Source of the DNA: a virus
Lineage: Duplodnaviria; Caudoviricetes
Length of the DNA stretch: 64,000 nucleotides
Virus record (IMG/VR): IMGVR_UViG_3300033069_000690
Location: 1-64,000 of that record
Reading direction: 5' to 3' (one strand)
The translations under genes and the position numbers were made by a program. Positions 1 through 13,925 of this stretch are shown piece by piece; the first letter of the stretch is position 1, and each line of letters opens with the position of its first letter. Below the pieces are notes generated by a model that was given only the letters and a program-made list of their open reading frames with translations, had not been told where the DNA came from and did not search any database.

Positions 1-81
1 GATGTTATCACTAATTATCATCCTTTAGACAATTTAGGTGATAAGTTACATTTGGTAATAGTACCATTTGTGAACTACTAA
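1..81 (+). CDS. 3' end of an upstream gene (partial, DVITNYHPLD...VPFVNY*)
   Basis: Open frame from position 1 to TAA at 79-81, followed by an A/C-rich spacer and the next ATG at 93. Confidence 0.45.
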   Translation, partial: DVITNYHPLDNLGDKLHLVIVPFVNY

Positions 82-92
82 TACCTAACACA

Positions 93-329
93 ATGAGCTC
101 ATTAAGCCCAATCACAAAGTGCTTACTATACCCAATAGTAATAGCATTCTTATTAGTATTCTACGCATTAGTAGATTACTCATTAACCTTGTTCTTTGCA
201 TGGTTATTTGAAGCAACACTAATTAGTACAGCAACCTTCCCACTGATGGTTGTATTATACGTATGTAGTGCTGTTGGTGCATTTGCTTCAATACTTACAT
301 CATGTGAGTACATAGAAAAAGAATTTTAA
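93..329 (+). CDS. small membrane protein (2 hydrophobic segments)
   Basis: 78-aa ORF with an A-rich start context and hydrophobic stretches. Confidence 0.65.
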   Translation: MSSLSPITKCLLYPIVIAFLLVFYALVDYSLTLFFAWLFEATLISTATFPLMVVLYVCSAVGAFASILTSCEYIEKEF

Positions 330-332
330 GCA

Positions 333-1019
333 ATCCTAGTTAATTCACCGATAAAATCAGCTTAGACTACTGATTTCCTATTCTAGGTAAGGTTCTTATT
401 GCTCACGCCAGTGATTTGCGTGTAATAAATTAGGATAATCTTATGAAAACCAATAACTTAACACCTTGAACTATGCTAGAGGTGGTGCGTAAAGCATTGA
501 ACAGCAAACTTGTAAGCCTTGAAGCCAGAGATGGTGGAGCTGTTAAGCAAGTAAATTCAATGCATAGTTGTGGTACAAAGCAGTCTTCGAGCAACCTAGA
601 AATAGGCCAATACCTTGATGTAAAGGCGACTGAAATAACTGAGTATCACAGCTATTGCATTAACATTATGAAAATCAATACTTAATTAAATGAGGGTGGA
701 GTAAATGTAGTTACTGCTCCAGACCCTTCCTACGCGAGAATGCAGAAATCTGGTTGATACTTACTTAAACCAATTTCCACCTATCAGTACTCAAAAAGAG
801 AGATTGTTAAACTGATAATTAAAAAGGTGTAAGACAGTCCCATACAAAGTCCTGGGCTAAATGAATCCAGGCATACTAAACAATCAAAAGAAGCTTTGCA
901 CCGCTATTACTTGTAAGTAATACCAGGTGTAGAAAAAGAGAGATGCGCATTCTACTTGAGCAGGTAGAACTCAATGATGGTAGTCAAACCATTGAAATTA
1001 GGTAAAACTATCCCTAATT
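333..1019 (+). ncRNA. candidate large multi-domain structured non-coding RNA
   Basis: About 690 nt without a credible ORF. Nested helices 333-341/428-436, 461-467/824-830, 480-485/777-782 and 559-572/647-661, many local hairpins, and GNRA loops (CCTA-GAAA-TAGG 595-606, CCA-GAGA-TGG). Confidence 0.6.
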
Positions 1020-1044
1020 ACGTATAACTAAAATAACAAACATC

Positions 1045-1293
1045 ATGGCAATAAAATGCATAGTAATAGGTGAACAACCACCAGATACAAGAAAACGAAT
1101 CACATTCGAACACGTTCTTTTAGTTGATCTCGTTGTAACAAAGACTAATATTAGACCTGAGCATTCTAAGTACATAGAATTAATCTGTAAAAACTATATA
1201 CCTGGTAAAGACTTAATGTTTGCTTATAATAACCCAAGTAACAGAAGTCAAGGATCATTAATAATTGGTCAATGGAATGATGGTGTAGCATAA
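1045..1293 (+). CDS. hypothetical protein
   Basis: 82-aa ORF preceded by the A-rich leader aaaataacaaacatc. Confidence 0.65.
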   Translation: MAIKCIVIGEQPPDTRKRITFEHVLLVDLVVTKTNIRPEHSKYIELICKNYIPGKDLMFAYNNPSNRSQGSLIIGQWNDGVA

Positions 1294-1303
1294 AATAACT
1301 AAT

Positions 1304-1326
1304 CACATCTCGTAAGATCTGTGGTT
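1304..1326 (+). repeat. 23-bp direct repeat, copy 1 (CACATCTCGTAAGATCTGTGGTT), hairpin with GTAA loop
   Basis: Exact second copy at 1744-1766. Confidence 0.9.
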
Positions 1327-1360
1327 GGGGCATTTATTACCATCTAATACTTACCACATC

Positions 1361-1639
1361 ATGACAACACCGGAAATAATACAGAGACTATCTGATCTCA
1401 AGCCACTTGTTGGTAAAACAGACAAGGTAGCTATTGATGAGGCTATTGCTTTATTATCTGCAGCACAATTACTAGAAAGTAGTGCAAATGCTCTTGACAT
1501 GTTAAAAGGTCTTATAGATACTAATGATAGAATGATTGTAAAAGTTAGCAAAGATCGATTAATGGCAACTGAACCGCATATGAAATCTTTTCATGAAGGA
1601 GCTGCTACAATTTTACACGCTAGAGGAATAACATATTAA
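1361..1639 (+). CDS. hypothetical protein (start moved from TTG 1325 to ATG 1361, MTTPEIIQRL...)
   Basis: The TTG start overlaps the repeat hairpin; ATG 1361 is in frame. Confidence 0.65.
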   Translation: MTTPEIIQRLSDLKPLVGKTDKVAIDEAIALLSAAQLLESSANALDMLKGLIDTNDRMIVKVSKDRLMATEPHMKSFHEGAATILHARGITY

Positions 1640-1743
1640 AAGGTATAAAACCCTAATTAAAACGAAACAGTATAACCACTAAATAATTACACAACGGGCA
1701 AAAGCTCTCACAGCAATTTATCCGTCAGTTAAATGTACTCAGC

Positions 1744-1766
1744 CACATCTCGTAAGATCTGTGGTT
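1744..1766 (+). repeat. 23-bp direct repeat, copy 2
   Basis: Identical to 1304-1326. Confidence 0.9.
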
Positions 1767-1789
1767 AGTTAATAATTCATACCAATTCA

Positions 1790-2230
1790 AAGGTACATGA
1801 CAATTGTCAGTTGGTAGAGAATTGTAAAGCATACTTGAAAACACAAGACGATTCTAGTGATTAGTTTTTGTACTTGTAATATAATCTAAGTAAAGTATGT
1901 GGTGGCAGCATTTGAAAAGCGGGTGTGTAAGAAGAAATTCTGATAACGATTAGTAAAATGCCTCAACAATAGTAATATTGTTGTAGTAGTTGTTTGAAGA
2001 TTGCCAAGAATCGAGGCTATATAACAACATTGTGCAACTGGGGTGATTACCAGTAACATCATGAAGATGAAATACAAGTACCTAATGGTTTAAAGAGGGG
2101 ACTTATGTTGTGATATGATAATAAATACAAAAACACCAATGGGAAACCTGCTAGGACATGGTGGTATGAAACAGAAAACGTAGACTGTGATTGTATGTTT
2201 ATTGTCTAAGTAACAAAGTAATTAAGGCTG
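1790..2230 (+). ncRNA. candidate structured non-coding RNA region
   Basis: No credible + ORF. Stems GTACA/TGTAC (1793-1797/1869-1873), ACAATT/AATTGT, CAACAATA-GTAA-TATTGTTG (1964-1983), GTTGTT/AACAAC and ACTGG/CCAGT. Confidence 0.4.
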
Positions 2231-2272
2231 AACACGCTTGTATTTATTTAATTAACTAAAAACTAACACATT

Positions 2273-2476
2273 ATGATTTACTTATACATATTAGGATTTA
2301 TAGTATCTTATGTCTTAATAAAAAGATTAAGAGGTAAAAAGGAAACTAACAATACTTGGGGAGATGTATTTCTTACAGTATTTTGTTCTTTATTGAGTTG
2401 GGCAACAGTAATACTAATTATCCTTATTTACCTAATAGTGGTTGTAAAGTTACCTAAACCTCCTAAATGGTTATAA
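2273..2476 (+). CDS. small membrane protein
   Basis: 67 aa, two hydrophobic segments, A-rich start context. Confidence 0.7.
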   Translation: MIYLYILGFIVSYVLIKRLRGKKETNNTWGDVFLTVFCSLLSWATVILIILIYLIVVVKLPKPPKWL

Positions 2477-2532
2477 AATAATATACCATATTTGGTGTGA
2501 AAGATAATAAAAATCACTTGCTTGAAGATATT

Positions 2533-2564
2533 TTTGGTAATTTAAAGTATTTATTGTATATTTG
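2533..2564 (+). promoter_or_regulatory. Bacteroidetes-type housekeeping promoter (-33 TTTG / -7 TAnnTTTG)
   Basis: TTTG at 2533-2536, a 20-nt spacer and TATATTTG at 2557-2564 match the known Bacteroides/Flavobacterium consensus. Confidence 0.7.
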
Positions 2565-2568
2565 TATT

Positions 2569-2673
2569 ATGAATGTAGTATACATATATATTTTAAAAGA
2601 CCAAGATTCTAATATAAAACACCAATGGGAAAGCGAAAGTTCGATTCTTTCCTTAGTTACTAACAACAAATAA
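2569..2673 (+). pseudogene. truncated GIY-YIG homing-endonuclease-like N-terminus fused to a tRNA 3' remnant
   Basis: MNVVYIYILKDQDSNIK resembles GIY-YIG N-termini; the frame then runs into a tRNA T-arm (GAAAG-TTCGATT-CTTTC, 2635-2651) and stops at 34 aa. Confidence 0.45.
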
Positions 2674-2679
2674 AAATAT

Positions 2680-2958
2680 ATGAAACCAATTTTAGATCAA
2701 ACACGACAGATTCATTATGTAGATAGTAGTGATATGATTGATTTTATTGCAACTAACTCAAAGATGGAGTGGAATAATGTATGTGATTTTGTTAAAGAAA
2801 ATAACATTTGTAATGGAGAATATGGCCCATCGTTTTGGGAAAAAGAAGATTTAATTAAAAAATCTCACGAATTCAATGAAGAACAAGTTTATTGGGTTAG
2901 TGCGTTTTTTGAAGCACATCCTTGGATTGAAAGAATGATGATTGTATTTGATGATTAA
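2680..2958 (+). CDS. hypothetical protein
   Basis: 92-aa ORF, A-rich start context. Confidence 0.75.
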   Translation: MKPILDQTRQIHYVDSSDMIDFIATNSKMEWNNVCDFVKENNICNGEYGPSFWEKEDLIKKSHEFNEEQVYWVSAFFEAHPWIERMMIVFDD

Positions 2959-3003
2959 AAAAAATCACTATTGGATTGATCAAAACTTATAACAACCTAA
3001 CAC

Positions 3004-3267
3004 ATGAAAAAGAATACTCTCTTAACTATCTATATGATAGTATTAGTGCTCCTGAAGCTCGGAGCATGGATAGGCGTGCCATTAGCCTCTAAGATGGATG
3101 ACGACATAGTTATTGTATTAATATTCATGTCCTCATTATCCTTATTTATAATTTATAACCTTTCTGAAGGCATTAAATTTAACCGTTTAATTGAGCTATA
3201 TGAGCACGATTATGACGAGCATTATATGGTTGCTCATAATAGGAACCATAGCTCAAATCCAAGCTAA
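3004..3267 (+). CDS. small membrane protein
   Basis: 87 aa, two hydrophobic helices. Confidence 0.65.
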   Translation: MKKNTLLTIYMIVLVLLKLGAWIGVPLASKMDDDIVIVLIFMSSLSLFIIYNLSEGIKFNRLIELYEHDYDEHYMVAHNRNHSSNPS

Positions 3268-3349
3268 ACAAGATGATACAAGGATTAATTCTAGGATTAG
3301 CAGTCATAATAGCAGCGATCCTCAACGAAGACGATAATATTAACCTATC

Positions 3350-3658
3350 ATGACAGCACTCGAACAATACATAGAGGATATGCGTAAAAACATGTCCTCT
3401 AATCAATTAGAGATGAAGGAGTATTTCATCCAACTAGCTAAAGCACTTGATGCTGATTTAAAAGGAAAAAAAGAACCTGATAACAGTTATATACAAGGTG
3501 TATTACCTGATACAGCATTAAAAACTGTGTGTGAACTATTAGAGTTAAACCACGAAATAATTTATGCTGATATCCATGGTGCATTAAGAATTCAAAAAAT
3601 ATCTGAACCTCCCTCATCAAAAGGACATTATAAATATCCTTCTCTTGGGGTAAAATAA
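3350..3658 (+). CDS. hypothetical protein
   Basis: 102-aa ORF. Confidence 0.7.
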   Translation: MTALEQYIEDMRKNMSSNQLEMKEYFIQLAKALDADLKGKKEPDNSYIQGVLPDTALKTVCELLELNHEIIYADIHGALRIQKISEPPSSKGHYKYPSLGVK

Positions 3659-3682
3659 AAAATAATCTAACACAAATAACTC

Positions 3683-4237
3683 ATGAAGAAATTCATCACA
3701 TTACTCTCATTATTCCTTCTAATAGGAATTACATCTCAAGCTGATAGTATAACTACTAAAGCTAAGGAGATGGCTCAAACTGCTGTTAATACAGCTGATA
3801 GTGCTATTACTGCTGTTGATACTAGCAGTACGTTTAAAACGTTCTACAATGACCTAAAATCAGGTGTTGGTGCGCTATCATCATCACTTAAAGTTGGTGC
3901 AACTGAGGTCTTTAAAATCCTTATTAAGCAACAATTAGTACAATCTATAAGCTGGTTACTAATTATAATTGTATTATTAGGTCTAGGATTTTATGCGTTA
4001 TCTTGCGGTAAAAAAGCTGTTGATAAAGCAAATAGTAAGCGAACACAAAATGAAAATTATGGTAGAAACTATTCAATAGGAGATTCAGAATTCTTAGAGT
4101 ATATGATAGCTTCAATATTCCTAATAGGAGGAGGTCTTGGTATGCTTTGTGTATTATGTACTGATATTGTAACAGGATTCGTTAATCCAGAGTATGGAGC
4201 CATTATGGACGTAATGAATATGATTAAGAAATTTTAG
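3683..4237 (+). CDS. exported/membrane protein (signal peptide plus 2 TM segments)
   Basis: MKKFITLLSLFLLIGITSQA-D signal-peptide pattern and two further hydrophobic segments. Confidence 0.8.
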   Translation: MKKFITLLSLFLLIGITSQADSITTKAKEMAQTAVNTADSAITAVDTSSTFKTFYNDLKSGVGALSSSLKVGATEVFKILIKQQLVQSISWLLIIIVLLGLGFYALSCGKKAVDKANSKRTQNENYGRNYSIGDSEFLEYMIASIFLIGGGLGMLCVLCTDIVTGFVNPEYGAIMDVMNMIKKF

Positions 4238-4325
4238 TAGTAACACCATTGCCAATTTGGCTCTACTACTTAAATAAAGGTGTACTGCATAGCAGTTCTC
4301 ACAGTAGCTCCTTTAAGGCTACTTT
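4236..4325 (+). other. compact intergenic RNA structure (three hairpins, possible pseudoknot, T-run)
   Basis: AGTAGTA/TACTACT stem around a GCCA-ATT-TGGC hairpin; ACACC (4243-4247) is complementary to GGTGT (4279-4283); AGTAGC/GCTACT hairpin followed by TTT. Confidence 0.4.
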
Positions 4326-4350
4326 TATATTCACCTAACACTAAAAAAAC

Positions 4351-4995
4351 ATGCTTAAACAAATTAAAAAGTTACCAAAGCTAAATAAGCGAGAGGAACA
4401 AATTGTCCTATACTTAAGAAAATTTTACAGTTCTATAATCACATTGTTTCGTTATGACAGAACTAGTAACGAAGAATGTAAGGAAGTAGTAAATAATGTC
4501 GAAGTATTTGCAGCCATCCCTATGTACGAAAGTATTGTTCTTGTATTGTTTTCTCTTAGAAAAGCTCTAGGAGAAGAACGTATAAGATTTATTGACGTAG
4601 GAGCTGGTAAGGGTAACATATTAATGCTTGCTCGAACTATATGGACTTGTGCTACTAAGAATACAAGTTGGGATGATTTTGTTGGTATTGAATTTAATAA
4701 AGCTTATTGTAGAATATTATCACAATTAGATGTTATAATATTGTATAATGATGCTTTTGAAATACGTAATAAGCAACTATATAATGGGGATTCTTCCATA
4801 CGTAGAGTATTCCATATCTATCAAATAGTAAAAGATCCAGACAAACTAAAAGAGCTATATCAACTCTACATTAAATTAATGAAGTCTGGTGATATACTAA
4901 TTGTTAGTGGATTAGCTTATGAAAGTTGGTTTAAGGAGTTAAATCTAATAAGCCCAGGAAAACAAATGGGTGTAATGGTATACATAAAACCATGA
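4351..4995 (+). CDS. class I SAM-dependent methyltransferase
   Basis: Motif I FIDVGAGKGN, then acidic motif II GIEFN and YNDAF. Confidence 0.8.
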   Translation: MLKQIKKLPKLNKREEQIVLYLRKFYSSIITLFRYDRTSNEECKEVVNNVEVFAAIPMYESIVLVLFSLRKALGEERIRFIDVGAGKGNILMLARTIWTCATKNTSWDDFVGIEFNKAYCRILSQLDVIILYNDAFEIRNKQLYNGDSSIRRVFHIYQIVKDPDKLKELYQLYIKLMKSGDILIVSGLAYESWFKELNLISPGKQMGVMVYIKP

Positions 4996-5312
4996 CAGCT
5001 CCACACTTCTCACACGATCAGTGGGTGTTATTAGGCTTTATTATAGTAGTATTCATACTATTAGTAATAATGTCAGTAGTTGTTAATGAAGTAATATTAG
5101 CTCATGAAGAGTATGATCTAATTAAACTACCTAATGGTGACTACCAATACACACACCCAACTAAAGGTGTAATCATCTGCAAAAGCAATGATTTCCCAGC
5201 AATGTGTATTATCCATAGAGACTTAGCTTCTAGACCTGATGCAAAAATCAAGGATGAGGTTAGAGTCTTATTCTACAAAGAATTTAACGAATTGGTCCAC
5301 ATGGATCTATAA
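4992..5312 (+). CDS. membrane-anchored hypothetical protein
   Basis: ATGA overlap with the upstream gene; N-terminal TM helix. Confidence 0.7.
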   Translation: MTAPHFSHDQWVLLGFIIVVFILLVIMSVVVNEVILAHEEYDLIKLPNGDYQYTHPTKGVIICKSNDFPAMCIIHRDLASRPDAKIKDEVRVLFYKEFNELVHMDL

Positions 5313-5318
5313 AAACCA

Positions 5319-5367
5319 GTGTTAGGTTAGGGTTGGTGGGAGCGATCTCACCTTCCCTTCTTAATAC
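5319..5367 (+). other. long intergenic hairpin with GCGA tetraloop (processing site or terminator)
   Basis: GTGTTAGG/CTTAATAC, AGGG/CCCT and GGTGGGA-GCGA-TCTCACC. Confidence 0.55.
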
Positions 5368-5382
5368 ATAATCCATACTCAA

Positions 5383-5589
5383 ATGGGTATTAACACAATC
5401 TTAGTATTTCTACTCATTATTTCCTTCGCAATAGGAGTAAATGGGGTAGCCCATCTAATGTATTGGTCATGGTTATCAAAAAAACCAGTAGAAACAGTTA
5501 ACTTCCACTGTAATAAAGCGAAGAATCTCATAATAACAGCATTCGTGCTGTGCTCAGTATTCTTACTGATCCTAATAATCTTACCTTAA
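5383..5589 (+). CDS. small membrane protein
   Basis: 68 aa, two hydrophobic segments. Confidence 0.65.
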   Translation: MGINTILVFLLIISFAIGVNGVAHLMYWSWLSKKPVETVNFHCNKAKNLIITAFVLCSVFLLILIILP

Positions 5590-5601
5590 TAAGGCTTAAA
5601 T

Positions 5602-5681
5602 TGTGACATAGCATAAGGTTAACACAATCCTTGAAATTGTAATGATGGGCTAATATGGAGGTTCAAATCCTGCTGTCGCCA
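5602..5681 (+). tRNA. degenerate tRNA-like gene (anticodon loop CCTTGAA, i.e. UUG/Gln register with C33)
   Basis: Acceptor TGTGACA/TGTCGCC with a 1-72 mismatch, perfect ACAAT/ATTGT anticodon stem, T-loop GTTCAAATC; D-arm is incomplete and the variable region is long. Confidence 0.5.
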
Positions 5682-5689
5682 CTAAAGTA

Positions 5690-6129
5690 GCGTAAGTTTA
5701 GCATTATAATTTCTAAAATCCTAGTGGTAACATTAGGCGTGTTGTTACCCTTGAGAAAGGAAAAGTATTAAATAGATATAAACCCTGTTGGTTAATCTTA
5801 TCTACAACACGAATGAGTTCTCAGCAAAGTAGTTAATGACCATGAAACGTAACTAAATCAACTAAAAGTTCCCTCGGTAGTACATGGATCAGGAACTTAA
5901 TTAACTACGTGACCCTACTCTTATTATAGACTGCTAAAAGTCCTGCAATAATAAGACAAGAGGGTGCTAAATCGTATATTTACATTTACATCGGAGAACC
6001 CTCTACGTGAAGAACGTGGTTGATAATTACCGGCAGGGTAATCAATAAGTATCCGCTAATAGTAGTAAGGGGTTGGGGTGAGGAATGGATTTTAAATCCT
6101 ATCTCGTTAAAACTCTGACCCCATATTAC
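5690..6129 (+). ncRNA. candidate large structured ncRNA directly 3' of the tRNA-like gene
   Basis: Stems CGTGTTGT/ACAACACG, GTAGTTAAT/ATTAACTAC, AAGTTCC/GGAACTT, TCTTATTAT/ATAATAAGA and TGGGGT/ACCCCA; GNRA hairpins CCTAGTG-GTAA-CATTAGG and CCTT-GAGA-AAGG; no credible ORF. Confidence 0.6.
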
Positions 6130-6145
6130 ACAATTCAAATCTAAC

Positions 6146-6304
6146 ATGAACAAAATAATTAACTTCGAAAACAAATCAGAGATGCATGTAAAGAATGCAT
6201 TTCTAAACTTAAAGGAACGTTACAGGGATGTACGATTTCCTAAAGTACACATGAGGGCTAGCCTCTGTACAGGATTCTTTGTTGTTGGTAAACAAAAACT
6301 ATAA
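6146..6304 (+). CDS. small hypothetical protein (52 aa, MNKIINFENK...; not in the ORF track)
   Basis: ATG 6146 in an A-rich context; TAA 6302-6304 lies 2 nt before the next ATG. Confidence 0.6.
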   Translation: MNKIINFENKSEMHVKNAFLNLKERYRDVRFPKVHMRASLCTGFFVVGKQKL

Positions 6305-6306
6305 CC

Positions 6307-6711
6307 ATGGAAAAGAACATCATTGGCGAGGTTAAAATACCTCTATTAACTAGGGAACAGTTTACTAAAGAAAAATGGGAAACAGGTGATTACATTTTAT
6401 TAGACTATTATAACAGAGAAGTAACTATTGTTAAAGAAGATTACACACATAGTTATCATAGAATTGATGGTTATTATATATGTCCTGTCCATGGTACTGT
6501 AATGGGAGTTGTACTTTATGTTCTTACTAAAAATGATAGTCAAAGACCGTATCTAAAAAAGAAAAAGGAAATTAGCCCTCGTACATTAGTTAGCTCGTAT
6601 AAGTATATACATTTTATACGTAGATATGGAGATGATGAAGTAAATTATTCCGCTGTACTATCGAATCAAGAAACTCTAGCTGGATCTACGTTCAGTCTAG
6701 AAATAAAGTAG
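6307..6711 (+). CDS. hypothetical protein
   Basis: 134-aa ORF. Confidence 0.7.
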   Translation: MEKNIIGEVKIPLLTREQFTKEKWETGDYILLDYYNREVTIVKEDYTHSYHRIDGYYICPVHGTVMGVVLYVLTKNDSQRPYLKKKKEISPRTLVSSYKYIHFIRRYGDDEVNYSAVLSNQETLAGSTFSLEIK

Positions 6712-6772
6712 TTTCTGTATAAGGAACGGATTCTACTTCATTTATATTAGTAGTAATATTAGTGCTCTGAAG

Positions 6773-6801
6773 GGCTAAGCTAACCCTTATAATGCTTAGC
6801 C
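6773..6801 (+). other. hairpin immediately upstream of the tmRNA (GGCTAAGC/GCTTAGCC)
   Basis: Perfect 8-bp stem; TATAAT lies in the loop. Confidence 0.45.
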
Positions 6802-6815
6802 TATAGGAGTTTAAT

Positions 6816-7139
6816 GGGGCTAAATTGGAATCGACTGGAGTTGATGTAGTAATCTCGCATGTAGAGCAAGTTTGGAGCCTCTTAAAACCTCTATTCATCT
6901 TCGAAATGACAATGATCTTTCAACAACAACGTTTGCTGATGTAATGGCTTCTATTGAAGCTAACACAGCTGAACCAGTTCTTATTGCTGCCTAATAAGTG
7001 TCTGTGTGGACATTAAACACACTGGTGGAGGTCTGGAAAGACCCTAATAGTACGAGTGAAATGGTGGTAATCCACTAAACATGTAATCCGAGGTTACAAC
7101 ACGATTAGCAGCACGTGGGTTCGAAACCCACTAGCTCCA
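6816..7139 (+). ncRNA. ssrA: tmRNA (transfer-messenger RNA); tag (A)DNDLSTTTFADVMASIEANTAEPVLIAA**
   Basis: 5' GGGGCTA...GGAATCGAC; 3' T-arm GTGGG-TTCGAAA-CCCAC and acceptor TAGCTCC-A with the G3:U70 alanine identity pair; internal frame 6908-6991 ends LIAA TAA TAA; CCA is not fully encoded. Confidence 0.93.
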
Positions 7140-7157
7140 CAATTAAAACATTTAACA

Positions 7158-7535
7158 ATGGTAGAAATTAAAGAATTACTAGGTAAAGTTATTACTAAAA
7201 TTGATCAAAGTAATAACGAATTAACCTTTCTTATTGAAGATGGTACTAAGTACAAAATGTACCATGAACAAGATTGTTGCGAAGATGTAACAATCGAAGA
7301 TATAAATGGTGACTTAGAAGATCTAATAGGATCTCCAATATTACAAGCTGAAGAAGTTTCAGACTACAAACCTATCCTAGAGGAAGATGTTAAGAAAACA
7401 AATGAAATCTTAGAATGGGGTTCTTGTACTTGGACTTTTTATAAGTTAGCTACAATTAAAGGTTATGTAACCATTCGTTGGTTTGGGGAATCAAATGGCT
7501 ATTATTCTGAATCAGTAACTTTTGCAAAAGTATAA
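7158..7535 (+). CDS. conserved phage hypothetical protein (YHEQDCCEDV motif)
   Basis: 125-aa ORF with a motif common in large phages. Confidence 0.8.
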   Translation: MVEIKELLGKVITKIDQSNNELTFLIEDGTKYKMYHEQDCCEDVTIEDINGDLEDLIGSPILQAEEVSDYKPILEEDVKKTNEILEWGSCTWTFYKLATIKGYVTIRWFGESNGYYSESVTFAKV

Positions 7536-13815: not shown

Positions 13816-13889
13816 GCCTCTAGTAGCTTAAGTGGTAGAGCGTCTGTCCTGGTGACGGCGAGGTGGGGGTTCGAATCCCCTCTAGAGGC
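13816..13889 (+). tRNA. atypical tRNA: His-type 8-bp acceptor (G-1:C73) with non-canonical loop CCTGGTG (UGG register)
   Basis: GCCTCTAG/CTAGAGGC, D-arm GCTT-AAGTGGTA-GAGC, T-arm GGGGG-TTCGAAT-CCCCT, canonical spacing; C33 and U37 are abnormal. Confidence 0.8.
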
Positions 13890-13925
13890 ACTAAGATTAG
13901 TGTTATTAATTTAAACCAAGTAGTA

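What the first reader, a model, noticed from the sequence alone, without database searches (positions are those of the whole stretch)
5690..6129. Candidate ~440-nt ornate ncRNA directly after a tRNA-like gene
Seen: a dense series of perfect stems: CGTGTTGT(5738-5745)/ACAACACG(5804-5811), GTAGTTAAT(5829-5837)/ATTAACTAC(5900-5908) enclosing AAGTTCC/GGAACTT, ACCCT/AGGGT enclosing TCTTATTAT/ATAATAAGA, and TGGGGT/ACCCCA. GNRA hairpins lie at 5720-5737 and 5749-5760, with an apparently unpaired GAATGAGTTCTCAGCAA. The only ORF is a weak antisense one. Known: GOLLD and ROOL RNAs are phage-associated and frequently adjacent to tRNAs. Inference: a member of one of those classes or an undescribed one. 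With 333-1019, this phage would devote more than 1 kb of its early region to large RNAs.
Basis: partly seen in the sequence, partly recalled or inferred. Interest (0 to 1): 0.75.

Follow-up and report, generated by a model that had tools for sequence, protein, structure and literature searches.

The report
Uncatalogued folded phage RNA gene
Bases 5714-5972 encode one copy of a roughly 260-base, tightly folded non-coding RNA found in well over a hundred uncultured phage genomes, usually just upstream of tRNA or tmRNA genes; it is missing from the RNA family catalogue and its job is unknown.

Summary
Only 5714-5972 (+) has comparative support. It is one member of a family found in more than 100 IMG/VR phage contigs, a few MAG contigs and one cultured phage, Cellulophaga phage phi14:2.

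Anatomy:
- a GNRA hairpin;
- a 7-bp helix closing a three-way junction;
- a hairpin with the near-invariant 9-nt loop CUUGAGAAA;
- a linker, AAUGAGUUCUCAGCAAG, that hardly varies;
- a second three-way junction ending in GCUAA.

Four helices covary at every pair. G.U outnumbers A.C 83 to 33, which sets the strand as +. The loop-linker pseudoknot has modest support. The type of the 5' tetraloop tracks one base pair in the 3' domain.

No Rfam family matches, so it is neither GOLLD nor ROOL. Nearby tRNA and tmRNA genes are all on the same strand (60 of 60) and mostly downstream. In about ten members a tRNA-shaped gene starts within 13 nt of the 3' end.

By my mapping, the phi14:2 copy lies in an intergenic region reported as abundantly transcribed, early and persistent.

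Not supported: 5973-6129 has no homologue. The upstream "tRNA-like gene" is below threshold. 333-1019 is not a second copy.

Function is unknown. My best guess is a stable trans-acting RNA released by tRNA-processing enzymes. This scan found the family earlier on other DNA.

The parts
5602..5681 (+). Degenerate tRNA-like element upstream. It has a 6-bp acceptor-like stem (5602-5608 with 5674-5681) and a T-arm-like hairpin (5657-5673). Its status is uncertain.
   Evidence: Rfam tRNA model 18.9 bits, below the gathering score of 29. ARAGORN makes no call. Fold z +0.71. Not conserved in phi14:2.
5615..5632 (+). Possible degenerate copy of the family's upstream hairpin 'U1' (AAGG-UUAACACAAU-CCUU). 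The canonical loop UAAACAUUGA is absent.
   Evidence: No match to TAAACATTGA with up to 1 mismatch near here. 80 of 91 relatives carry the canonical hairpin 15-226 nt upstream. The resemblance was judged by eye only.
5714..5972 (+). The whole conserved RNA family member (core).
   Evidence: nhmmer with the 49-sequence family profile: E 1.3e-36, the only hit in the window. The minimum-energy fold matches the consensus.
5720..5737 (+). Pa: 7-bp hairpin capped by a GUAA tetraloop (5727-5730).
   Evidence: All 6 aligned pairs show changes on both sides. The loop is GNRA in 49 of 49 sequences. Loop type tracks alignment column 278, which is window 5919.
5738..5811 (+). Pb: the 8-bp helix 5738-5745 / 5804-5811, closing a three-way junction that holds Pc and Pd.
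   Evidence: 7 of 7 aligned pairs covary and 99% of cells are paired.
5745..5764 (+). Pc: a short stem with the near-invariant 9-nt loop CUUGAGAAA (5750-5758).
   Evidence: 4 of 4 stem pairs covary. The loop is nearly invariant.
5774..5803 (+). Pd: a hairpin of variable length and sequence.
   Evidence: Present in the minimum-energy fold. This site holds an unalignable insert in all members.
5812..5828 (+). Linker AAUGAGUUCUCAGCAAA that hardly varies. UUCUCA (5818-5823) pairs with the Pc loop UGAGAA (5752-5757) as a pseudoknot. G5824-C5825 pairs with G5966-C5967 (Pe); A5823 could pair with U5968 instead of joining the pseudoknot.
   Evidence: Four IMG/VR scans, each asking for a change at one linker position. 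Four members have C to U, which keeps a G.U pair, and in L145 the loop changes G to A as well. One member (L180) has an uncompensated U to C. No member has a change at the other two positions.
5829..5908 (+). Pf: the 9-bp helix 5829-5837 / 5900-5908 with a variable tip that includes the inner hairpin 5866-5898.
   Evidence: 7 of 7 aligned pairs covary.
5909..5972 (+). GUG junction, then Pg (ACCCU 5912-5916 / AGGGU 5961-5965), an AC/CAAG internal loop, Pg2 (5919-5927 / 5948-5956), then the 3' end GCUAAAU.
   Evidence: Pg is nearly invariant; 2 of 5 pairs change on both sides. Pg2 covaries but is only about 70% paired in this alignment.
5973..6145 (+). Unassigned ORF-free tail with a long hairpin at about 6062-6129 (includes TGGGGT/ACCCCA). 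It could be a 3' extension, the 5' leader of ORF 6146-6304, or neither.
   Evidence: Fold z -2.14. No homologue in any fetched locus. No terminator-like site.
6816..7142 (+). tmRNA gene on the same strand, 844 nt downstream. This is context; tmRNA is the family's most typical neighbour.
   Evidence: Rfam RF00023, 64.7 bits, E 5.9e-23.

Best explanation
Window 5714-5972 (+) is a gene for a stand-alone structured non-coding RNA. It belongs to a phage-specific family that is not in Rfam.

Shown:
- The RNA has two multi-helix domains (Pa-Pb-Pc-Pd and Pe-Pf-Pg).
- They are joined by a 17-nt linker that hardly varies.
- Variable hairpins are tolerated only at fixed peripheral sites.

Moderately supported: the linker pairs with the Pc loop, and the 5' GNRA tetraloop probably docks on the Pg internal loop. 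Together these would give a compact fold.

Inferred:
- It is transcribed rightward as the first gene of an early RNA operon that usually continues into tmRNA or tRNA genes.
- Where a tRNA-shaped gene follows within a few bases, RNase P cutting at that gene's 5' end would create the RNA's 3' end.
- The released RNA is stable and abundant.

Speculative: it acts in trans by binding a conserved host or phage macromolecule of the translation or RNA-processing machinery, and not as a cis regulator.

My odds:
- real, conserved, structured RNA gene on the + strand: about 0.95;
- expressed as a stable RNA: about 0.75;
- matured by tRNA-processing enzymes in many members: about 0.6;
- trans-acting binder or decoy as its mode of action: about 0.35.
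For: Family:
About 100 of these also carry the other conserved blocks.
- Six further members sit in MAG contigs. None is in a cultured bacterial genome.
- Among 50,697 GenBank phage records, only phi14:2 has it.

Structure, on 49 sequences:
- 92% of cells are paired, against 78.6% in shuffles.
- 226 cells show changes on both sides, against 51 in shuffles.
- 0 of 500 shuffles reach the observed value on any of the five measures. Sliding the 3' partners drops pairing to 35-47%.
- G.U/U.G 83 against A.C/C.A 33, and 49 of 49 GNRA loops on the + strand.

Pseudoknot: linker variants are rare. The four members with a change at the pair G5755-C5820 all keep pairing, and one of them is compensated.

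Tetraloop and receptor: GU[AG]A loops go with U at column 278 in 41 of 42 sequences. GA[AG]A loops go with another letter (or, once, a gap) in 6 of 7. In 15 of 2000 label shuffles, the best of 150 columns does as well.

Context:
- A tRNA or tmRNA lies within 1 kb downstream in 20 of 75 members. The figure upstream is 3 of 80.
- All 60 such genes within 3 kb are on the same strand.
- A tmRNA or tRNA-shaped gene starts 1-13 nt after GCUAA in about ten members.

Expression: Drobysheva et al. (bioRxiv 10.1101/2020.03.07.982082) report two long intergenic regions of phi14:2. They are transcribed rightward, above most coding genes, from the earliest time point, and do not decline. The numbering offset (their gp66 is GenBank gp077) places these regions at 2905-3589 and 3911-4601. 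The first holds the family copy at 3111-3364. The second holds the tmRNA.
Against: - No function, partner or reaction has been shown.
- No protein gene is a consistent neighbour. The commonest neighbouring cluster is in 26 of about 100 loci, at positions from -3.9 to +2.7 kb, and has no homologue in the window.
- In the window no tRNA-shaped gene abuts the 3' end, so the processing model does not define this copy's ends.
- The mapping of the phi14:2 paper's gene numbers to coordinates is my inference. The supplementary tables are not held.
- The metatranscriptome contigs laid on the window are fragments and do not prove transcription.
- All members were collected with an exact linker word. The linker's invariance in the main alignment is therefore partly by construction. 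Only four of its positions were probed for variants.
- One linker variant (L180) breaks a predicted pseudoknot pair.
Confidence: 0.6

Rival explanations
1. It is a cis-acting leader of an early RNA operon. In this reading the folded RNA stays with, or acts on, the transcribing polymerase or the precursor. It would secure read-through, correct folding or processing of the downstream tmRNA, tRNAs and early genes, in the manner of processive antitermination RNAs such as HK022 put or EAR.
For: It sits at the head of same-strand RNA genes: 60 of 60 on the same strand, and downstream 20 of 75 against upstream 3 of 80. It often lies only 1-13 nt before a tRNA-shaped gene. A dedicated conserved upstream hairpin precedes each copy.
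Against: - Only about a quarter of members have a tRNA or tmRNA called by ARAGORN within 1 kb downstream.
- In the window it is followed by 170 nt of unrelated sequence and then protein ORFs.
- Tandem copies exist (L055, L080), and so does a copy with the 3' domain only (L022).
- The phi14:2 region stays abundant late in infection, when other early transcripts fall. That fits a stable product better than a leader.
- Known antitermination RNAs are far smaller (from memory).
Confidence: 0.2
2. It is a new ribozyme. It would be either self-cleaving, defining its own ends or the 5' end of the following tRNA or tmRNA, or trans-acting on tRNA-shaped RNAs.
For: - About 45 near-invariant nucleotides are clustered by a pseudoknot and two junctions, while the helices covary freely and peripheral hairpins vary in length. 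That pattern is seen in RNase P, group I introns and glmS.
- There is a probable GNRA-receptor contact.
- It is close to tRNA-shaped genes.
Against: - No match to any Rfam ribozyme family at relaxed thresholds.
- The order of helices fits neither group I nor RNase P.
- Spacing to the next tRNA-shaped gene runs from 1 to more than 140 nt, which argues against precise cis cleavage.
- No cleavage data exist.
Confidence: 0.12
3. It is a member of GOLLD or ROOL.
For: The context is similar: phage-borne, near tRNA genes, many helices.
Against: No GOLLD or ROOL match at gathering score on the window or at E up to 10 on 5300-6400. None in 13 relatives. The core is about 260 nt, against roughly 600-800 nt for those families (sizes from memory).
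Confidence: 0.01
4. It is not an RNA gene. It would be a DNA-level element (origin, packaging site or protein-binding palindromes) or a small protein-coding region.
For: The conserved upstream hairpin could in principle be a DNA or promoter element.
Against: - G.U pairs outnumber A.C pairs 83 to 33.
- All tetraloops are GNRA on one strand only.
- Helices keep pairing through changes on both sides while their sequence drifts.
- There is no ORF of 30 aa or more in 5590-5985.
- The phi14:2 region is abundantly transcribed.
Confidence: 0.03

Closest known systems
The unexplained abundant 'long non-coding RNA' of Cellulophaga phage phi14:2 (g004-g005 junction; Drobysheva et al., bioRxiv 10.1101/2020.03.07.982082)
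   Same: phi14:2 bases 3111-3364 are a clear family member. They share the helices, the loop, the linker and the 3' domain, and a tmRNA lies 667 nt downstream, as in the window (844 nt). The region is reported as transcribed rightward, early, abundantly and persistently.
   Different: The paper gives no ends, no structure and no family. It treats the whole 685-nt intergenic region as one unit. My mapping of g004-g005 to 2905-3589 rests on a numbering offset, not on the paper's tables.
GOLLD (Rfam RF01998) and ROOL (RF03087) RNAs
   Same: They are large, many-helix RNAs of phages and prophages that tend to lie beside tRNA genes and have no known function. Both were recently shown to form RNA-only homo-oligomers (PMC12286853, abstract seen).
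   Different: There is no covariance-model match. This core is much smaller, at about 260 nt. It has a different host range and habitat (phages of aquatic and wastewater samples; the one cultured member infects a flavobacterium). Oligomer formation has not been tested.
Group I intron core
   Same: Both have a GNRA hairpin near the 5' end that probably docks on a distal helix. Both have a pseudoknotted strand that pairs first upstream and then downstream. Both have variable peripheral hairpins around an invariant core.
   Different: - The order of helices differs: there is no P3' segment between the P7-like and P8-like elements.
- There are no flanking exons that would join into a gene.
- The 3' end is A, not G.
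- There is no Rfam RF00028 match at E up to 10.
RNase P-dependent 3'-end formation of a long RNA by a downstream tRNA-like structure (MALAT1/mascRNA; recalled from memory)
   Same: A tRNA-shaped element directly after a structured non-coding RNA would let RNase P set that RNA's 3' end. About ten family members have that arrangement.
   Different: That example is eukaryotic. Here the downstream elements are real tmRNA or tRNA genes in their own right, and most members, the window included, lack an abutting one.
Stable RNAs C and D (species 1 and 2) in the phage T4 tRNA gene cluster (recalled from memory)
   Same: They are phage-encoded stable RNAs of unknown function, co-transcribed with tRNA genes and matured by the tRNA-processing machinery.
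   Different: No sequence relationship was tested or is expected. The T4 RNAs are smaller and confined to T4-like phages.

Membership tests
This uncatalogued phage RNA family (defined here from 49 aligned members) | A significant match to the family profile across both domains. | tested here: met
   nhmmer E 1.3e-36, profile positions 12-235 of about 239, window 5714-5972.
This uncatalogued phage RNA family (defined here from 49 aligned members) | GNRA hairpin Pa, helix Pb, Pc with the CUUGAGAAA loop, the linker AAUGAGUUCUCAGCAA, helices Pf and Pg, and the 3' end GCUAA, in that order. | tested here: met
   All are present at 5720-5972. The window's Pb differs from the consensus by a compensated C-G in place of U-A.
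This uncatalogued phage RNA family (defined here from 49 aligned members) | The upstream hairpin with the loop UAAACAUUGA, 15-226 nt before the core (80 of 91 members). | tested here: not met
   No match with up to 1 mismatch near 5400-5714. There is only a degenerate look-alike at 5615-5632.
GOLLD RNA (RF01998) | A covariance-model score at or above the gathering threshold. | tested here: not met
   No match at gathering score or at E up to 10.
ROOL RNA (RF03087) | A covariance-model score at or above the gathering threshold. | tested here: not met
   No match at gathering score or at E up to 10.
tRNA (for the upstream element 5602-5681) | Rfam RF00005 at or above 29 bits, or an ARAGORN call; cloverleaf with a D arm. 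| tested here: inconclusive
   18.9 bits. E is 0.63 over 4227 families, which is about 1.5e-4 for this one model. The D stem is unpaired in the alignment. ARAGORN is silent. Fold z +0.71.
Group I intron | An RF00028 match, the P3-P9 order of helices, flanking exons that restore a gene, and a terminal G. | tested here: not met
   No Rfam match. The flanks are unrelated between members and are often complete tRNA or tmRNA genes. The conserved 3' end is GCUAA.
Bacterial RNase P RNA | An RF00010 or RF00011 match, and a P4 pseudoknot built from the conserved regions CR-I and CR-V. | tested here: not met
   No Rfam match. No GAGGAAAGUCC or ACAGAA..GGCUUA motifs are in the consensus (motifs recalled from memory).

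The most novel reading that the evidence does not exclude
The family is a new class of RNA machine that phages carry alongside their own tmRNA and tRNA genes. One version is a ribozyme acting on tRNA-shaped RNAs. The other is an RNA-only assembly, like ROOL and GOLLD but smaller, that captures or protects them. In either case the linker and pseudoknot core would be the active or binding site.
Probability: 0.15. Interest if true: 0.9.

Novelty: new variant of a known kind. Interest (0 to 1): 0.66.

Why it matters
Large, conserved, pseudoknotted RNAs with near-invariant cores have often turned out to be ribozymes, ligand sensors or parts of central machines. New ones with more than a hundred natural variants are rare.

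This one has three practical advantages:
- It is phage-specific and linked to phage-borne tmRNA and tRNA genes.
- It probably corresponds to one of the most abundant transcripts of a culturable crAss-like model phage, phi14:2 on Cellulophaga baltica. Its function can therefore be tested by ordinary genetics and biochemistry.
- It would also explain why such phages keep several hundred bases of gene-free DNA in a tightly packed early region.

Tried and rejected
- Rfam at gathering score on the window, and at relaxed E on 5300-6400, on 1-2300, on phi14:2 1-7214 and on 17 relatives. Only tRNA, tmRNA and chance-level hits appeared.
- Full covariance model of the 369-column alignment.
- Second copy in the window, including 333-1019. 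None was found.
- Conserved partner protein. Clustering ORFs within 4 kb of about 100 members gave no consistent neighbour. Profiles of the top six clusters find nothing in the window.
- Close relatives of the window phage, wanted to test 5973-6145 and the tRNA-like element. A search with the downstream 134-aa ORF found none. The one metagenome hit is a distant member.
- Lineage of the jumbo contigs that carry the RNA, tested with the window's 2029-aa protein. The query also failed on phi14:2, so the test says nothing.
- Metatranscriptome contigs of four studies. One contig spans the tmRNA (6835-7140). Short contigs from relatives cover the RNA's 5' domain and linker. Contig depth cannot rank expression, and uncovered parts carry no meaning.
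- Upstream hairpin as a general early promoter. It occurs once per RNA copy and 1-3 times per complete genome, close to the backwards-read control pattern (0-2 per genome). The phi14:2 paper found no common motif upstream of early transcripts.
- T-arm-like hairpins as a regular flank. Only 6 of 91 upstream and 7 of 93 downstream have one, against 1-5 of 65-74 in control windows.
- Literature search for the linker sequence. No paper holds it. The catalogue of 8,495 IMG/VR candidate RNAs (PMC10690425) may list the family under a number, but its tables are not held.

Full report
**Observation**

The gap between ORF 5383-5589 and ORF 6146-6304 holds no ORF of 30 aa or more before 5986. The + strand of 5690-6129 folds better than all 100 shuffles (z -2.88). 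The - strand does not (z -1.17).

**What is conserved**

In phi14:2 the surrounding 250 nt are collinear with the window, and a tmRNA follows on the same strand.

About 100 of these also carry the other blocks: CCUUGAGAAAGG, GUGACCCUACUCUUAU and AGAGGGUGCUAA.

A profile built from 49 aligned members finds one copy in the window, at 5714-5972 (E 1.3e-36). It finds nothing at 333-1019. Tandem copies occur in L055 and L080.

In 185,579 species genomes, the six real members all lie on MAG contigs and none in a cultured bacterium. Complete carriers include genomes of 92-100 kb with terminal repeats and genomes of 270 and 373 kb. More than one phage lineage therefore has it. The window's DNA polymerase is about 29% identical to those of crAss-like phages.

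**Structure**

The order is:
- Pa, a GNRA hairpin;
- Pb, a 7-8 bp helix that encloses Pc and the variable hairpin Pd. Pc is a 4-bp stem with the 9-nt loop CUUGAGAAA;
- the linker AAUGAGUUCUCAGCAAG;
- Pe (GC with GC, possibly extended by an A-U pair), which encloses Pf and Pg, separated by GUG. Pg consists of ACCCU/AGGGU, an internal loop and Pg2;
- the 3' end GCUAA.

On 49 sequences, 92% of cells pair, against 78.6% in shuffles. There are 226 cells with changes on both sides, against 51. No shuffle of 500 reaches any of the five measures. Sliding the 3' partners by 1-3 columns drops pairing to 35-47%. Every pair of Pa, Pb, Pc and Pf covaries.

G.U outnumbers A.C 83 to 33, and all 49 Pa loops are GNRA. 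Both facts fix the + strand. The minimum-energy fold of 5714-5972 gives the same helices.

**Pseudoknot**

The Pc loop UGAGAA is complementary to UUCUCA in the linker. The bait word forced the linker to be invariant, so I scanned IMG/VR for members changed at each of four linker positions.
- Four members have C to U at the position equal to window 5820. That keeps a G.U pair, and in L145 the loop partner changes G to A as well.
- One member, L180, has an uncompensated U to C at the pair next to the outer end.
- No member is changed at the other two positions.

This is modest support. It also shows that the linker is conserved beyond what pairing alone requires.

**A long-range contact**

Of 150 variable columns, the one most informative about the Pa tetraloop type is the first pair of Pg2 (window 5919). 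GU[AG]A loops go with U in 41 of 42 sequences. GA[AG]A loops go with another letter (or, once, a gap) in 6 of 7. In 15 of 2000 label shuffles, the best of the 150 columns does as well. Relatedness of the sequences is not controlled, so this is a lead for a tetraloop-receptor contact and not a proof.

**Context**

Among 102 distinct members, ARAGORN finds a tRNA or tmRNA within 1 kb downstream in 20 of 75. Of those, 11 are tmRNA and 9 lie within 150 nt. Within 1 kb upstream the figure is 3 of 80. All 60 such genes within 3 kb share the RNA's strand.
- tmRNA begins 4-7 nt after GCUAA in L045, L056 and L111.
- A tRNA-Met begins 13 nt after it in L114, and a tRNA-Leu abuts it in L135.
- In L005, L025, L089 and L095 a 120-135-nt tRNA-shaped gene with a 30-50-nt insert begins 1-7 nt after it; L008 shows a similar D-arm-like start about 4 nt after GCUAA, but ARAGORN did not call it.

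In such members RNase P would create the RNA's 3' end. That step is inferred. The window differs: 173 nt of unmatched sequence and two ORFs separate the RNA from its tmRNA at 6816-7142.

No protein family is a regular neighbour.

**Upstream hairpin**

In 80 of 91 members a hairpin with the loop YUAAACAUUGAA lies 15-226 nt upstream.
- Its stem is at least 4 bp in 94% of instances, against 63% when the two flanks are swapped between members, and there are 42 distinct stems.
- It occurs once per RNA copy.
- It occurs 1-3 times per complete genome, so it is not a general promoter.

Whether it is the RNA's 5' module or a dedicated promoter element is open. The window lacks the canonical form.

**The "tRNA-like gene"**

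5602-5681 scores 18.9 bits on the tRNA model. For that single model the score is unlikely by chance, but it is below the gathering score, and the D stem is unpaired. ARAGORN is silent and the fold is no better than shuffles. I treat it as a possible tRNA remnant.

**Expression**

Drobysheva et al. report two long intergenic regions of phi14:2 (the g004-g005 and g005-g006 junctions). These are transcribed rightward, above most coding genes, from the first time point, and do not decline later. The authors leave the function open.

Their gp66 is GenBank gp077, an offset of 11. Nine of the omitted ORFs are the tiny ones in the first 4.6 kb. That places the two junctions at 2905-3589 and 3911-4601. 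The first holds the hairpin and the family RNA. The second holds the tmRNA. This mapping is my inference.

**Known families**

No Rfam family fits, so GOLLD and ROOL membership is rejected. Group I intron and RNase P readings fail on the order of helices, on the flanks and on the motifs. No paper in the library holds the linker sequence.

**Verdict**

This is a real, widespread, uncatalogued phage RNA gene of about 260 nt.

The function is unknown. I favour a stable trans-acting RNA cut out of an early RNA operon (about 0.35 for the mode of action), over a cis leader (0.2) or a ribozyme (0.12).

Earlier reports of this scan reached the same family on other DNA (e1-5843627, e1-5361926). One of them gave me the lead to the phi14:2 paper, which I read and mapped myself.

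Noticed in passing
L001:2912-2945 and 80 of 91 related loci; the window has only a look-alike at 5615-5632: A conserved hairpin (loop YUAAACAUUGAA, covarying 4-9 bp stem) lies 15-226 nt upstream of nearly every family copy. It occurs once per copy. It has no Rfam family. It could be the RNA's 5' module or its own promoter element.
   Followed up: partly
L005, L025, L089 and L095, starting 1-7 nt after the family RNA's GCUAA end: tRNA-shaped genes of 120-135 nt with normal acceptor, D and T arms but a 30-50-nt insert in the middle. ARAGORN calls them only with its intron option. In L005, the one of these loci scanned, Rfam at gathering score has no hit at that spot.
   Followed up: partly
window 6816-7142 (+): A phage-borne tmRNA (Rfam 64.7 bits) that ARAGORN misses. 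A 307-nt contig in one metatranscriptome covers 6835-7140.
   Followed up: partly
window 13816-13891 (+): A tRNA that ARAGORN reports with a four-base anticodon (ggtg) and no amino-acid assignment. Rfam scores it 42.5 bits. It might be a frameshift-suppressor-like tRNA or an artefact of the call.
   Followed up: no
window 376-450, inside the ORF-poor stretch 333-1019: 80% identity over 75 nt to L057:9013-9085, about 2.6 kb upstream of that contig's family RNA. No Rfam match in 1-2300. It is not a member of the family studied here.
   Followed up: partly
L017:8755-9020 and L066, downstream of their family RNAs: Permuted (two-piece) tmRNA genes in phage contigs. L017 scores 64.6 bits on Rfam RF04321. 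ARAGORN marks both as permuted.
   Followed up: no
window 40288-60986 (-): Two adjoining giant ORFs of 2030 and 4868 aa. The 2030-aa one has no detectable relative in phi14:2 or in eight other carrier genomes.
   Followed up: partly
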